Of a stretch of 64,000 nt of DNA, positions 29,001 to 32,000 are shown piece by piece; the first letter of the stretch is position 1, and each line of letters opens with the position of its first letter. Source of the DNA: an uncultured Verrucomicrobiae bacterium (GTDB taxonomy: Bacteria; Verrucomicrobiota; Verrucomicrobiia; Opitutales; JABDGR01); the NCBI GenBank assembly GCA_963765205.1, contig CAVXVB010000008.1, forward strand, positions 32,001 through 96,000, written 5' to 3'. The position numbers were made by a program.

Positions 29001-32000
29001 GCCGCAGCGGCAGGGATGACCGGGAAAAGCGGCCAGGCGATAGCCGTAATCGAAGGTCAATTCTTCGCCGACAGCAATCGCCCGCAGGGCGCGGAGACTG
29101 AGGTGGCTTTCAGCGGCCACGGCCTCGCAATTGGGATCGCAACTATGGTTGGCGAAGCGCGCCGCATTGTCCGGCTGGTCGCCGTCGAGGTCGTGGTCGG
29201 AATCCAGTTCGAAAATAAAAACATTGCCCTGCGCCCCGCGGCGGCGGGCGGACTCGGCCTTGGTGATGCGTTCGCCATGATAGCCGACGACCGGCGCACC
29301 GGCGGCGAGGTCTTGCACCGCGAACAATCCGCGCCCATGGATGTGCGAAAAGTCCACTCTATAAACAGGTGCGGTCATTGAAGTCAAAAAGGCGGCCTAT
29401 AAATTGCGGTTGATGCCCTTCTCGGTCAGCGGCAGCCACTGGCCGCGGCGGAAGAGGGTGACTTGCCCGGTACTCGCGGAAACCACGATGGCCAGGCAAT
29501 CGGCGGCCAGCGAAATCGCGCAAGCGGCGGCGTGGCGCGAGCCGAGGCCGCTGGGGAGCTGGTGCGCGTAGTCGGGCGCATGGATGAGGCTACCGGCGGA
29601 GACCAGCACGCCGTCACCCCGGATGACGAAGGCGCCGTCGAGCGAGGAGAACTCCTTGACGGTTTCATCCATGAACGGGTTGAGAATGTTCCGATCCTCC
29701 TCCTTGTAGCCAAAAAAGGGATTGAGCACGAGCGGCTTGATGTAGGGCTGGATTTTTTCCGATTCGCCGAGCACGAAAAGGCAGCCGACGGGACGGCCTT
29801 CGCGCCCCTCGATGGCCAGTTCCGTGGCAACGCCAAGCACGCGTTCCAGCACCTCGGGTTTGACGGTCTCCGGCAGCATGTCGGTCTGGCGCGTGAAAAC
29901 CGACTGGAATTCGCGCTCGACATCCACGACCACGACCGTGTCAAACTGGTTGCTGGCGGGGATGCCACCGAGGCAGCAGAGGCGCTCGTCGTTGCGAATG
30001 ATGCCGCGGGTCAGGCCGATGAGCACGGCGCTGCGCAACTGGCCGAGACGGTTGTTGGAAAAGGACCGCACGGGAATGATGGCATCCGCCACGCCCGGAA
30101 GGTCGGCAACTTCATGCGCGGTTTGCGTGACGAGAATGGTCTTGAGCGCGCCGAACGCGTGGGTGAGGTCCACGCCGCCGGCAAATGTGTCGCCAAACAC
30201 CATGATGGTTGAGCAGCGGGCGCCGCGGGCGACTTTGGCAGCGACGTTCAGGATGAGGCGGTTGAACTTGCTCTCGTGCGAATCGGTGCGGCCCGCGCCG
30301 CCGCGGAAGACTTGTTTGACGATCTGCTGAAAGGTTTCAAGGTCCGGGGCTTCGGTGAGGCGGTCGAGCAGCGCGCGGTCCTCAATGACGCGGGCGAGGG
30401 AGGCGAGTACGGTGAGATAAGATTTTTCCTTCTCCCCGGCGAGCATCAGGAAAACCAGGCGCAAATTCTTGTAATCGCCGGCCCCGTTGAACTCCAGCCC
30501 GTGCGGGCAGCGCCCGACGACGAAGATGTAATTGAATTTCATCGGCACGCGCAAGTGCGGCAGGCCGACGCCGTGGCCGAGATAGGAGGTCATCGTGCGC
30601 TCGCGCTCGAGCAGTTCGGCGCGGAGCTGCTCGCGGGTGCGCTTGGCAAAAATCTGGACGGGCAGCGCATTCAGCAACTCGGCCAGCGCGGAGCCGAAAT
30701 CGCCGCTGCGCAAATCAAGAATGCGCGATTTGGCGAAATATCGGTCGAGACGCATGGCAGGTGGCGGGTGGAAAAAGGTTAAGCTAACGGGATGCGGTCA
30801 GACCGCACAATCCTATTGTTCCCGCAGACGACATATTCCGGCTGGGAGAGAATGACCGCGTTAAAATTTCTTAACGCTCCCAGTCAATGGCGCCTTTGCG
30901 CAACTCATACCCGAGGCCGAGCGCCAGCACTGCGGTGAAGAATAGTAAGGGAAGCACAATGGGCAGGTGCGCGGCGATGAATTCGCGGTAGATCAGCACG
31001 GCTGGCAGGAGAAAAACCACTTCGAGGTCGAAGATGATGAAAAGCATCGCGGTGACGTAGAATTTCACCGAGAAGCGCGGCTGCGGCTCGCCGATGGGGT
31101 CCATGCCGCACTCGTAGGCCGAGTCCTTGCGCGGGTAGGGCGCAGCGCGCTGGCCGAAGAGGCGGTTGCCAATTAAAATGGCCACCGCAATCCCCACGGC
31201 GAGCAGGAATTGAATCAAGACCGGAAGATAGGCTGGCAAATCCATGGCCACCAGCAAACACGGCCGCGCGCGCGGTGGCAAGCCGGAAGGTGGACGGAAG
31301 CGCGTTTAAAAGAGCGGCCTAAGGACCTGGGTTATTTCCACTATTAGTATCCGGTGCAGGGGCCGGGGCAGGGGCGGGCGCGATTGCAGCCGGCTGGGTT
31401 GCTGAGGGCGGAGCCGGGGCGGGTTGCACCGCCGTTGACGCGGCGGGCGCATGGAGCGTGTCAATCAAGTCCTGAAAGGTTTTGTCATAGTCCTGACTCA
31501 AGTGCCGATCTATCGTCTGTTGATAAATAATGCGGGCCTCGTCCCTTCTATCTAGCTTCTCCAGCAGGTGGCCCAATTCATAGCAACATCTCGCCACCCA
31601 GTAGCGCCCGTCGGGGTCGCGATCCACAGCCAGCGCCGTGTCGTTAGGACTCACGACACAGCTATTGAAAATCTGGTAATAAGTTGGAATCGCGGCCTTC
31701 ATGGCAGAGTCGGGGTTGGTTTCGTCTTCCGCCTGCAGATGCCCCAAGAGGACGCCCGCCTGCACATGGGCGACTGGGACCAGTTGGGTTTTATTGAAGA
31801 GGTCTTCGAGTTCACTCATCGCCACGTTGCGCTTATCCTGCATTTCGGCCTGGCGTTTGGCGGCCGAGTCACCGCCCACCCCGGTGGGAAGGTCGCCGTC
31901 CGATTCCGCCGCCATCGCCACCAGGCACATGGCGCGGGCGATCAGCGCGGCGGAATACATGGTGTCGCTCAACGGCTTGCCCTTCAACAGACCCAGCAAG

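What a model noticed while it worked through the whole genome (the two positions that open the first line are those of the whole stretch)
29397..30755. The only diadenylate cyclase is fused to a PTS EIIA(Ntr-type) domain with its phospho-histidine motif
The sole c-di-AMP synthase gene of this genome (g01642, 452 aa) is a three-part fusion: a PTS EIIA_2 domain (with a GVGLPH motif, His67, at the place of the phospho-acceptor), a DacZ-type pyruvate-kinase-like domain, and the DAC domain. The genome has EI, HPr, HPr kinase and a free EIIA but no PTS permease. I read this as c-di-AMP synthesis switched by phosphotransfer from the regulatory PTS. That would wire carbon/nitrogen status directly to the c-di-AMP control of potassium uptake (there is a c-di-AMP riboswitch before kimA on C12). 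New would be an input signal for an uncharacterised class of diadenylate cyclase that merges the two known K+ regulators (EIIA-Ntr and c-di-AMP) in one protein [...]
Evidence so far: Domains (pfam.tsv, call 87): PTS_EIIA_2 at 41-148 (61.9 bits), DacZ_P at 164-284 (60.4), DAC at 314-439 (69.9). There is no other DAC or DisA_N gene. The sequence has His61 and His67 in ...GHGVGLPH.... PTS parts: EI g01767, HPr g01463, HprK g03015, EIIA g00536; no EIIB or EIIC family appears in pfam.tsv. The c-di-AMP riboswitch at C12:50125-50296 lies upstream of KimA g03641 (rna.tsv, call 52), and g03306 is a PgpH-like phosphodiesterase. Conservation: 2128 proteins match at E<=1e-90. All 120 listed are 443-464 aa, >=59 % identical and carry the same three Pfam domains. 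They come from Opitutales, including cultured Rubellicoccus, Cerasicoccus and Coraliomargarita. Sources name them only 'PTS [...]
(Added by a program. Inside this text positions count along the whole contig: contig position 32,001 is position 1 of the stretch shown here. "Call 12" and the like, gene names such as g00115 and contig names such as C1 are that model's own, and its searches are not shown. The text may have been shortened before it was handed on; [...] marks where a part breaks off. The agent that wrote the report below was given it as the finding of a first reader that could run no searches.)

Follow-up and report, generated by a model that had tools for sequence, protein, structure and literature searches.

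The report
PTS-sensor-fused c-di-AMP synthase gene
This gene encodes the bacterium's only enzyme for making the signal molecule c-di-AMP, with a built-in phosphotransferase-system sensor domain; the design is already catalogued but untested, and genome comparisons here suggest that the sensor's key histidine matters only where the phosphotransferase system is present.

Summary
Window 29397-30755 (-) is an intact 452-aa ORF with PTS_EIIA_2, DacZ_P and DAC domains. It is the only DAC match in a 92%-complete genome. His67 aligns with the PtsN phospho-histidine motif.

The design is not new. Full-length matches occur in 60 of 62 sampled same-order genomes. The family appears to correspond to class 'DacD' listed in PMC6741144. 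This scan met it at least six times on other DNA. I found no experimental paper.

The new evidence is comparative:
- All 11 reduced genomes that keep EI and HPr keep His67.
- 15 of 26 evaluable EI-less genomes have replaced His67 or lack the EIIA domain.
- 88 of 88 other Opitutales loci keep His67.
- The DG[A/G] and RH signatures stay intact in all 40 genes examined.

This fits phosphotransfer from the PTS to His67 as a dispensable, modulatory input, with the unphosphorylated enzyme active. nuoA directly upstream is a conserved neighbour (67 of 74 loci).

Verdict: an ordinary member of a known but untested class, with a well-supported and testable mechanism.

The parts
29397..30755 (-). Gene for the 452-aa EIIA_2 / DacZ_P / DAC diadenylate cyclase
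   Evidence: ORF; three Pfam domains. The N-terminus MRLDRY is conserved in homologues. AF2 model: mean pLDDT 88.6, pTM 0.78.
30300..30755 (-). EIIA(Ntr-like) domain, residues 1-152
   Evidence: PTS_EIIA_2, 62.6 bits. Fold matches IIA-Ntr 4gqx (Z 18.3, rmsd 2.6, 148 aligned) and 1a6j (Z 18.1). Foldseek TM 0.79-0.83.
30555..30557 (-). His67 codon (CAC), the presumed phospho-acceptor
   Evidence: Aligns with the PH motif of PtsN 3urr/4gqx. His in 80 of 87 three-domain cluster representatives and in 88 of 88 Opitutales loci. Replaced, or the domain absent, in 15 of 26 EI-less genomes.
30603..30605 (-). Arg51 codon, the conserved active-site Arg of EIIA type 2
   Evidence: Arg in 79 of 87 representatives. 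Aligns with the RER of PtsN. Codon checked.
30417..30419 (-). Tyr113 codon, at the position of the second active-site His of PtsN
   Evidence: PtsN 'qaHleil' aligns with 'kSYLtvl'. Across 87 representatives this position is His 54, Tyr 17, Phe 8. The free EIIA of this genome also has Tyr here.
29904..30266 (-). DacZ_P domain (residues 164-284), pyruvate-kinase C-terminal-like fold
   Evidence: PF21755, 64.4 bits. Model residues 159-284 match pyruvate kinase C domains 5sc8 (Z 11.5), 2e28 (Z 11.3), 3e0v (Z 10.4) and AF0103 1vp8 (Z 8.3).
29439..29816 (-). DAC catalytic domain (residues 314-439)
   Evidence: PF02457, 71 bits. Fold matches CdaS-like 2fb5, DacM 7dg0, DisA 3c1y and 7y0d at Z 14.9-16.8. 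phmmer hits to CdaA structures.
29631..29639 (-). DGA motif (Asp373-Gly374-Ala375)
   Evidence: Codons read. Asp and Gly are invariant in 87 of 87 three-domain and 50 of 50 EIIA-less representatives.
29529..29537 (-). RHA (Arg407-His408-Ala409) in place of the textbook RHR motif
   Evidence: Codons read. Arg and His are in 87 of 87 representatives. The third position varies: Ala 45, Thr 15, Gln 8, Arg 8, others 11.
30871..31281 (-). nuoA, the genome's only Oxidored_q4 gene: conserved upstream neighbour on the same strand; functional link unknown
   Evidence: Pfam 99.7 bits. Only match in the genome. Directly upstream of the cyclase gene in 67 of 80 related loci, that is 67 of the 74 with at least 440 nt upstream, and in G195 and G276. 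nuoB-C-D lie elsewhere, on C9.
30756..30870 (-). 115-nt nuoA-dac spacer
   Evidence: Neither a promoter-like nor a terminator-like site was found in it. Sequence read.

Best explanation
The gene encodes the sole, housekeeping c-di-AMP synthase of this Opitutales bacterium. It is a DacZ-type enzyme: a pyruvate-kinase-C-like domain followed by a DAC domain, with an N-terminal EIIA(Ntr-like) receiver.

Most likely mechanism: EI takes phosphate from PEP and passes it to His26 of the single HPr, the His15 equivalent. HPr~P then phosphorylates His67 of the EIIA domain. HprK can damp this by phosphorylating the Ser46-equivalent serine of HPr. The phosphorylation state of His67 changes how the protomers pack, and so how often two DAC domains meet head to head to condense two ATP.

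Enzymes that lack His67 or the whole EIIA domain persist with intact catalytic motifs in PTS-less relatives. The unphosphorylated form must therefore be active, and phosphorylation is most likely inhibitory or tuning rather than required. The PK_C-like domain probably adds a second input from a small molecule. One visible output is a c-di-AMP riboswitch before an APC-family permease.

Shown here: domain anatomy, motif conservation, presence of all relay partners, absence of the three permease/EIIB families searched, and co-loss of the phospho-site with EI/HPr.

Inferred: the phosphotransfer itself, its sign, the oligomeric mechanism, and any ligand of the middle domain.
For: - Three domains above Pfam cut-offs, confirmed by fold.
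- Only DAC in the genome. Riboswitch and PgpH-type phosphodiesterase are present.
- His67 aligns with the PtsN PH motif.
- Within residues 1-152, the only invariant or >=90% columns across 86 sequences of mean 34% identity are M1, R51, E52, A64, P66, H67, G86 and L117. Conservation is thus concentrated on the phospho-site loop and the Arg (38).
- His67 is kept in 80 of 87 representatives and in 88 of 88 Opitutales loci.
- EI, HPr and HprK are present; PF02378, PF03609 and PF02302 were not found.
- Natural experiment (100-105): 11 of 11 reduced genomes with EI and HPr keep His67. Of 26 evaluable EI-less genomes, 15 replaced it (Tyr, Asn, Cys) or lack the EIIA domain, spread over five families. 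DG[A/G] and RH are intact in all 40 genes.
- In one family (f91), the four genomes lacking EI and HPr have 294-303-aa EIIA-less frames, while its ten EI+ members keep 450-557-aa frames with His (101, 104, 105).
- EIIA_2 is a recurrent fused module in the phylum: 12 of 15 long EIIA ORFs scanned are Na_H_Exchanger-EIIA_2 and one is CNNM-CBS-EIIA_2 (81).
- RHA is normal for the branch.
Against: - There is no biochemical evidence for this class, and none was found in print.
- 11 of 26 EI-less genomes still keep His67, so the site is not lost quickly or has another role.
- 7 of 87 cluster representatives lack His67, and their PTS status is unknown.
- Reduced genomes evolve under relaxed selection, so decay of any regulatory domain would look similar. 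Kin are not independent, and EI or HPr 'not found' comes from 90-96%-complete assemblies.
- In genus g152, 4 of 5 genomes keep HPr although His67 is Tyr and EI was not found. This does not fit a simple all-or-none co-loss.
- The second active-site His of PtsN is Tyr113 here.
- HPr is in 299 of 301 phylum genomes, so plain co-occurrence is uninformative.
- EIIA genes are not neighbours of EIIA-less DacZ_P-DAC genes: 2 of 80 loci have one within 3.5 kb and none is adjacent.
- The permuted DacZ_P-DAC-EIIA form is a singleton.
Confidence: 0.6

Rival explanations
1. The EIIA domain is never phosphorylated. It serves as a constitutive dimerisation or scaffold module, or binds a ligand or partner unrelated to the PTS. 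Its His is kept for structural reasons.
For: His67 persists in 11 of 26 genomes where EI was not found. Tyr113 replaces the second active-site His. 7 of 87 representatives do without His67. Reduced genomes may lose any accessory feature.
Against: Conservation in the domain is concentrated on the phospho-site loop and Arg51. His67 is in 88 of 88 ordinary Opitutales loci. It is lost only in lineages without EI, while all 11 reduced genomes with EI and HPr keep it. In G303 and G307 the EIIA fold still scores 66 and 39.5 bits although the His is gone, so the constraint that relaxed is site-specific.
Confidence: 0.2
2. The EIIA domain is an output or adaptor rather than an input. Like free EIIA-Ntr, which in E. 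coli binds TrkA and KdpD (recalled, not read here), it docks the cyclase onto ion-transport proteins according to its phosphorylation state. That would localise c-di-AMP production without changing catalytic rate.
For: EIIA_2 modules in this phylum sit on cation/proton antiporters and a CNNM protein. The free EIIA of this genome is next to a ClC channel gene. c-di-AMP targets are typically ion transporters (general knowledge).
Against: No partner was identified. The conserved neighbour is nuoA, not a transporter. This reading still needs His67 phosphorylation, so it is a variant of the best explanation rather than a true alternative.
Confidence: 0.12
3. The protein is catalytically dead because RHR reads RHA. 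It acts as a nucleotide sensor rather than a synthase.
For: The third residue of the textbook RHR motif is Ala409.
Against: - Arg407, His408 and the Asp and Gly of DGA are kept in 87 of 87 representatives, while the third position varies freely.
- It is the only DAC in a genome that keeps a c-di-AMP riboswitch and a PgpH-type phosphodiesterase.
- It is retained in 39 of 40 genomes examined, including genomes of 0.7-1.1 Mb.
- Two earlier scan notes also judged RHA normal for the family.
Confidence: 0.03

Closest known systems
Class 'DacD' diadenylate cyclases (nomenclature attributed to Corrigan & Gruendling 2013, as listed in Braun et al. 2019, PMC6741144)
   Same: Passages of PMC6741144 list DacD representatives from Lacunisphaera, Puniceicoccaceae, Coraliomargarita and 'Opitutae bacterium'. 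These are the same taxa that carry this fusion as their single DAC.
   Different: I could not read the paper that defines the class, and I did not compare with the listed accessions. The identity of DacD with this architecture is therefore an inference. No member has been characterised in any paper I could find.
Archaeal DacZ / CdaZ (DacY) cyclases (Haloferax volcanii DacZ, Methanocaldococcus jannaschii CdaZ)
   Same: A PK_C-like N-terminal domain is followed by DAC: DacZ_P hit and PK C-domain fold at Z 11.5. The best NCBIfam hit is NF041371 DacZ. PMC6741144 states that DacZ and DacY/CdaZ share the PK_C-like fold and have bacterial relatives.
   Different: This protein has an extra N-terminal EIIA domain. 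It scores 109 bits against the DacZ equivalog cut-off of 430, so it is a relative, not a member. It is bacterial, and its neighbour is nuoA rather than the MscS neighbour noted for some archaeal genes in PMC6741144.
EIIA-Ntr (PtsN) of the nitrogen-related PTS
   Same: Same fold, Z 18.1-18.3 to 1a6j and 4gqx. The PH phospho-site motif and the upstream Arg align. It occurs in a genome with EI, HPr and HprK, in which none of the three permease/EIIB families searched was found.
   Different: It is fused in cis to an enzyme instead of acting in trans. The second active-site His is Tyr. It is far below the TIGR01419 cut-off, 28.2 against 138.7 bits.
PTS-Ntr control of (p)ppGpp in Caulobacter (EIIA-Ntr~P binds SpoT/Rel)
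   Same: A regulatory PTS sets the level of a nucleotide second messenger (passage of PMC10118264 seen).
   Different: There the EIIA is a separate protein and the messenger is (p)ppGpp. Here the EIIA is part of the synthase and the messenger is c-di-AMP.
CdaA with CdaR/GlmM, and DisA
   Same: The same DAC catalytic domain.
   Different: Their inputs are membrane/CdaR/GlmM or DNA. They have no EIIA and no PK_C-like domain.

Membership tests
Diadenylate cyclase (DAC, PF02457) | DAC domain above the Pfam gathering score | tested here: met
   71 bits against a cut-off of 27.
Diadenylate cyclase (DAC, PF02457) | DGA motif | tested here: met
   Asp373-Gly374-Ala375. Asp and Gly are in 87 of 87 representatives.
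Diadenylate cyclase (DAC, PF02457) | RHR motif (as recalled from the CdaA/DisA literature) | tested here: inconclusive
   The motif reads RHA. Arg and His are invariant, and the third position varies across the DacZ-type branch, with Arg in only 8 of 87. I could not read what the characterised DacZ enzymes carry at this position.
Diadenylate cyclase (DAC, PF02457) | DAC fold | tested here: met
   Z 14.9-16.8 to 2fb5, 7dg0, 3c1y and 7y0d.
Diadenylate cyclase (DAC, PF02457) | Synthesis of c-di-AMP from ATP | not testable with these tools
   Needs an enzyme assay.
DacZ (NCBIfam NF041371, haloarchaeal equivalog) | Score above the curated cut-off | tested here: not met
   109.4 bits against a cut-off of 430; the match covers residues 238-439 only.
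DacZ-type architecture (PK_C-like domain + DAC) | PK_C-like domain directly before DAC | tested here: met
   DacZ_P, 64.4 bits. Pyruvate kinase C-domain matches at Z 11.5, 11.3 and 10.4 over model residues 152-284.
PTS EIIA type 2 (PF00359) | Domain above the Pfam gathering score | tested here: met
   62.6 bits against a cut-off of 27.
PTS EIIA type 2 (PF00359) | Phospho-acceptor His in the PH motif | tested here: met
   His67 aligns with the PH of PtsN 3urr/4gqx. That this His is the phospho-acceptor in PtsN is recalled.
PTS EIIA type 2 (PF00359) | Second active-site His (His120 of E. coli PtsN, recalled) | tested here: not met
   Tyr113 aligns with it. It is His in 54 of 87 more distant representatives.
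PTS EIIA type 2 (PF00359) | Phosphorylation by HPr~P or NPr~P | not testable with these tools
   Only indirect comparative evidence.
PtsN / EIIA-Ntr equivalog (TIGR01419) | Score above the curated cut-off | tested here: not met
   28.2 bits against 138.7.
Class 'DacD' | Architecture as defined by Corrigan & Gruendling 2013 | tested here: inconclusive
   The defining paper was not readable here. Braun et al. list Opitutae-type representatives. In the order sample, 54 of 60 genomes have a single DAC, mostly in frames of about 450 aa.

The most novel reading that the evidence does not exclude
In Opitutales, the PEP-dependent phosphorelay (EI, HPr, HprK), for which no sugar permease was found here, is a master regulator of ion and osmotic homeostasis. 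It acts through EIIA receivers built into its targets. Phosphorylation of His67 directly throttles the only c-di-AMP synthase, so the PEP/pyruvate ratio sets c-di-AMP. Sister EIIA modules gate cation/proton antiporters and CNNM-type transporters across the phylum. The conserved nuoA-dac gene pair would tie expression of the cyclase to the respiratory chain.
Probability: 0.3. Interest if true: 0.7.

Novelty: new member of a known kind. Interest (0 to 1): 0.5.

Why it matters
What signals control c-di-AMP synthesis is still poorly understood for most cyclase classes. This class carries a recognisable, chemically defined input: a single phosphorylatable histidine fed by a well-understood relay. 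It occurs in cultured Opitutales, such as the Rubellicoccus, Cerasicoccus and Coraliomargarita records, so the question is directly testable with standard assays.

The comparison here makes a concrete prediction. The unphosphorylated enzyme should be active, and His67~P should inhibit or tune it. If that holds, central carbon status (PEP/pyruvate, via HprK also ATP and glycolytic intermediates) would be wired straight into the messenger that governs potassium and osmolyte balance.

Tried and rejected
1. Docking of the EIIA domain (residues 1-152, alignment A2) with HPr (alignment A3): no verdict, score 0.02 against a mark of 0.32, and the controls were not run. This is neither for nor against binding.

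2. Plain co-occurrence of the fusion with HPr across the phylum is uninformative, because HPr is in 299 of 301 genomes.

3. Are EIIA genes neighbours of EIIA-less DacZ_P-DAC genes? No. Two of 80 metagenome loci have an EIIA-like stretch within 3.5 kb, and none is adjacent.

4. A second, independent fusion order (DacZ_P-DAC-EIIA_2, P0168) exists and keeps the PH motif. It is a singleton: the other 119 listed relatives lack EIIA. I do not count it as strong evidence.

5. Taxonomic range outside Verrucomicrobiota remains unsettled.
   - Two cluster look-ups gave almost no names.
   - The genome-contig scan kept only close relatives.
   - The Atlas named Verrucomicrobiota, plus one Fibrobacterota-labelled cluster.
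   - Earlier scan notes mention a spirochaete; I did not test that.

6. Literature. Galperin 2023 (J Bacteriol, PMC10127676), He et al. 2020 and Yin et al. 2020 are not held. I could not see whether they already discuss this architecture or its PTS input; from recall of the Galperin abstract, I think it likely.

7. No model coordinates were available to scripts, so the exposure of His67 and inter-domain contacts could not be measured.

8. A promoter and terminator scan of 28700-31500 found no site in the nuoA-dac spacer, and the overall count was no higher than in shuffles.

9. Dead-enzyme reading: rejected (see rivals).
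Full report
**Observation**

Window 29397-30755 on the minus strand is an uninterrupted 452-aa ORF, with ATG and TAG confirmed. Pfam finds PTS_EIIA_2 (residues 41-148, 62.6 bits), DacZ_P (164-284, 64.4 bits) and DAC (314-439, 71 bits), all far above their cut-offs.

An AlphaFold2 model built on an 86-row alignment has mean pLDDT 88.6 and pTM 0.78. It shows three folded domains and a disordered linker at 154-160.

By structure:
- Residues 1-153 match IIA-Ntr: 4gqx at Z 18.3, 1a6j at Z 18.1.
- Residues 159-284 match the C-terminal allosteric domain of pyruvate kinases: 5sc8 at Z 11.5, 2e28 at Z 11.3, and the AF0103 domain 1vp8 at Z 8.3.
- Residues from about 295 to 447 match CdaS/DacM/DisA cyclase domains at Z 15-17 (Foldseek agrees).

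**Genome context claims**

The genome has 12 contigs, 4.02 Mb, and is 92.18% complete. It holds:
- one DAC match;
- two EIIA_2 matches, this gene and a free EIIA;
- one HPr with both the His15-like and Ser46-like sites;
- one EI and one HprK;
- no match to EIIC PF02378, EII-Sor PF03609 or PTS_IIB PF02302. Other EIIB/EIIC families were not searched.

The gene behind it is an AA_permease_2 protein that no NCBIfam model names. 'KimA' is therefore plausible but unverified. A PgpH-type 7TM-7TMR_HD protein exists.

**Active sites**

In the phmmer alignment to PtsN structures, GHGVGLPH(67)LR lies on GEGVAIPHGR and Arg51 lies on the RER arginine. The second active-site histidine of PtsN (QAHLEIL) is Tyr113 here. 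The free EIIA of the same genome has the same Tyr.

In the DAC domain, DGA is present and RHR reads RHA.

Of the best 150 representatives of 50%-identity clusters, 87 have all three domains, 50 lack EIIA and 13 are fragments. Among the 87:

| Position | Residues among 87 representatives |
|---|---|
| His67 | His 80 |
| Arg51 | Arg 79 |
| 113 | His 54, Tyr 17, Phe 8 |
| Asp373, Gly374, Arg407, His408 | 87 each |
| 409 | Ala 45, Thr 15, Gln 8, Arg 8, others 11 |

So RHA is the norm of this branch, not a defect.

In an 86-sequence alignment of mean 34% identity, the only invariant or >=90% columns of the EIIA part are M1, R51, E52, A64, P66, H67, G86 and L117. Selection is concentrated on the phospho-site.

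**Distribution and prior knowledge**

The word-indexed search gave 2407 hits at E<=1e-5. All 120 listed are three-domain proteins of 443-464 aa. Sources call them 'diadenylate cyclase', 'PTS sugar transporter subunit IIA' or 'DisA... /mannitol/fructose-specific...'.

In a 301-genome sample of the phylum:
- 60 of 62 same-order genomes have a full-length match;
- outside the order, 3 of 238 do (G004, G008, G104, at 32-36% identity);
- G223 has a DacZ_P-DAC core behind another N-terminal region.

In a second sample of 60 order genomes, 56 have a DAC match, 54 of them exactly one.

Passages of Braun et al. 2019 (PMC6741144) list a bacterial class 'DacD' with representatives from Lacunisphaera, Puniceicoccaceae, Coraliomargarita and Opitutae. 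The Pfam family DacZ_P exists for the middle domain.

The survey by Galperin 2023 and two 2020 reviews are not held, so I could not see what they say. Searches for 'diadenylate cyclase'+EIIA+PTS, 'DacZ_P', c-di-AMP+Opitut and DacD+diadenylate found no experimental work on this class.

This scan has already reported the same fusion on other genomes at least six times: e1-4926223, e1-2726197, e1-4133580, e1-3800542, e1-2722509 and e1-2425558. The verdict each time was real, catalogued and untested.

**A natural experiment**

HPr is nearly universal in the phylum, 299 of 301 genomes, so simple co-occurrence says nothing. The order also contains lineages with genomes of 0.7-1.1 Mb.

EI (PF05524) was not found in 30 of 251 order genomes of at least 90% completeness. 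The misses are concentrated in families f63 (0 of 7), f67 (0 of 9), f76 (0 of 4), f89 and part of f91.

I examined 40 genomes: 29 EI-less ones and 11 reduced ones that have EI. A DAC was found in 39 of them. After fetching the genes, all 40 genes keep DG[A/G] and RH.

| Group | His67 kept | His67 replaced or EIIA absent |
|---|---|---|
| Reduced genomes with EI and HPr (11) | 11 | 0 |
| EI-less genomes, evaluable (26) | 11 | 15 |
| Other Opitutales loci covering the site (88 of 91; biased to close relatives) | 88 | 0 |

The 15 EI-less losses are:
- Tyr in G303, G369, G383, G396, G408 and G409;
- Asn in G307 and G371;
- a degenerate IVC with no EIIA Pfam match in G343;
- no EIIA in the open frame in G329, G349, G394, G437, G445 and G476.

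The 11 that keep His67 are G336, G354, G338, G356, G385, G397, G420, G430, G316, G361 and G351.

Not evaluable were G315 (gene cut by a contig end), G451 (a different, CdaA-like DAC), G375 (no DAC found) and one EI-less genome that was never listed.

Within family f91, the ten EI+ genomes have 450-557-aa frames with His. Four of its five EI-less genomes have 294-303-aa frames without EIIA.

Caveats:
- Relatives are not independent. The losses fall in five families and amount to perhaps six to eight events.
- 'Not found' in 90-96%-complete assemblies is not absence.
- Reduced genomes shed regulators in general.
- In genus g152, 4 of 5 genomes keep HPr without EI and carry Tyr.

**Reading**

The pattern is what one expects if His67 is held by selection only while a working phosphorelay can charge it. 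It is hard to reconcile with a purely structural role for the histidine.

The cyclase is retained with intact catalytic residues after the histidine or the whole domain is gone. The unphosphorylated or receiver-less enzyme must therefore be active. Phosphorylation should then be inhibitory or tuning, not an obligatory on-switch.

The PK_C-like domain is the allosteric-effector domain in pyruvate kinases and binds FMN in AF0103 according to PMC6741144. It is a plausible second, metabolite-binding input; this is inference only.

**Wider context in the phylum**

I chose 16 long open frames with EIIA_2 matches for their length, so they are not a random sample. Fifteen were scanned; L218 was dropped because my ORF call gave only 187 aa. 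The results:
- 12 are Na_H_Exchanger-EIIA_2 fusions, two of them with a TrkA_N domain;
- one is CNNM-CBS-EIIA_2;
- one is a true EIICBA permease;
- one has an unassigned N-terminus.

The free EIIA of this genome overlaps the start of a ClC channel gene. EIIA receivers fused to, or encoded beside, ion-transport proteins thus seem to be a theme.

**Neighbourhood**

The genome's only nuoA lies 115 nt upstream on the same strand. The pair nuoA-dac is kept in 67 of 80 related loci, which is 67 of the 74 that have at least 440 nt upstream. It is also kept in the deepest same-order members G195 and G276, but not in the three out-of-order loci.

nuoB-C-D sit on another contig behind an integrase-family gene. 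I found no promoter or terminator signal in the spacer. The meaning of the pair is unknown.

The downstream SET-domain, glycosyltransferase-like and Mpl genes are shared only by the closest relatives: SET and the glycosyltransferase-like gene in 2 of 80 loci each, and Mpl in 1 of 80.

**Verdict**

The finding is real and correctly described, but it is the ordinary cyclase of its order and already catalogued. The proposed mechanism is now better supported and sharpened, and it is readily testable.

- Interest: 0.5
- Novelty class: new member of a known kind
- Confidence in the mechanism: 0.6

Noticed in passing
window 30871-31281 (-) and loci L018-L097, L123, L124: nuoA, the genome's only Oxidored_q4 gene, is detached from nuoB-C-D, which lie on another contig. 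It sits directly upstream of the cyclase gene. The nuoA-dac pair is kept in 67 of the 74 related loci with enough upstream DNA and in the deepest members of the order. No description was found among earlier scan notes.
   Followed up: partly
L002 1417-3406 (G000:C4): The free EIIA gene overlaps the start of a ClC chloride-channel gene. The channel reads in two overlapping frames (1947-2708 and 1982-3406), which suggests a frameshift or an assembly indel.
   Followed up: no
L121 1677-2543 (G000:C9): nuoC (Complex1_30kDa) is split over two frames: profile positions 1-36 in one and 34-122 in another. This is a second possible indel, which may point to assembly errors in this genome.
   Followed up: no
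L209-L224 (phylum genomes): EIIA_2 domains are fused to the C-termini of Na+/H+-exchanger-family proteins (12 of 15 long ORFs scanned, two with TrkA_N) and of a CNNM-CBS protein. The ORFs were picked for length, so the share is not a frequency.
   Followed up: partly
P0168 (480 aa): A circularly permuted design, DacZ_P-DAC-EIIA_2, has the PH motif and the second His intact. It is a singleton among Planctomycetes-like EIIA-less relatives.
   Followed up: yes
P0212, P0246, P0138: Other fusions of the DacZ_P-DAC core: DHH/DHHA1 (phosphodiesterase-type) in front, a DAO-type FAD oxidoreductase behind, and an acyltransferase in front of EIIA. Some may be gene-calling or assembly chimeras.
   Followed up: no
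G303, G369, G383, G396, G408 (loci L226, L250, L256, L243, L247): One genus of reduced genomes carries Tyr instead of His67 in all five genomes. Four of the five keep HPr although EI was not found. This may be a changed use of the domain rather than simple decay.
   Followed up: partly
window 30793-30807: A 15-nt palindrome, TGCGGTCTGACCGCA, lies in the nuoA-dac spacer. It could be a protein-binding site.
   Followed up: no
window 28875-29387 (-): A 170-aa SET-domain protein gene starts 9 nt after the cyclase stop and overlaps the next gene by 10 nt. Only 2 of 80 related loci share it.
   Followed up: partly
G138:C8:21788-22624, G313, G346: A few Opitutales genomes carry a second DAC gene: an EIIA-less DacZ_P-DAC copy in G138, and a high-scoring (122.7 bits) DAC in a 493-aa frame in G313.
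   Followed up: no
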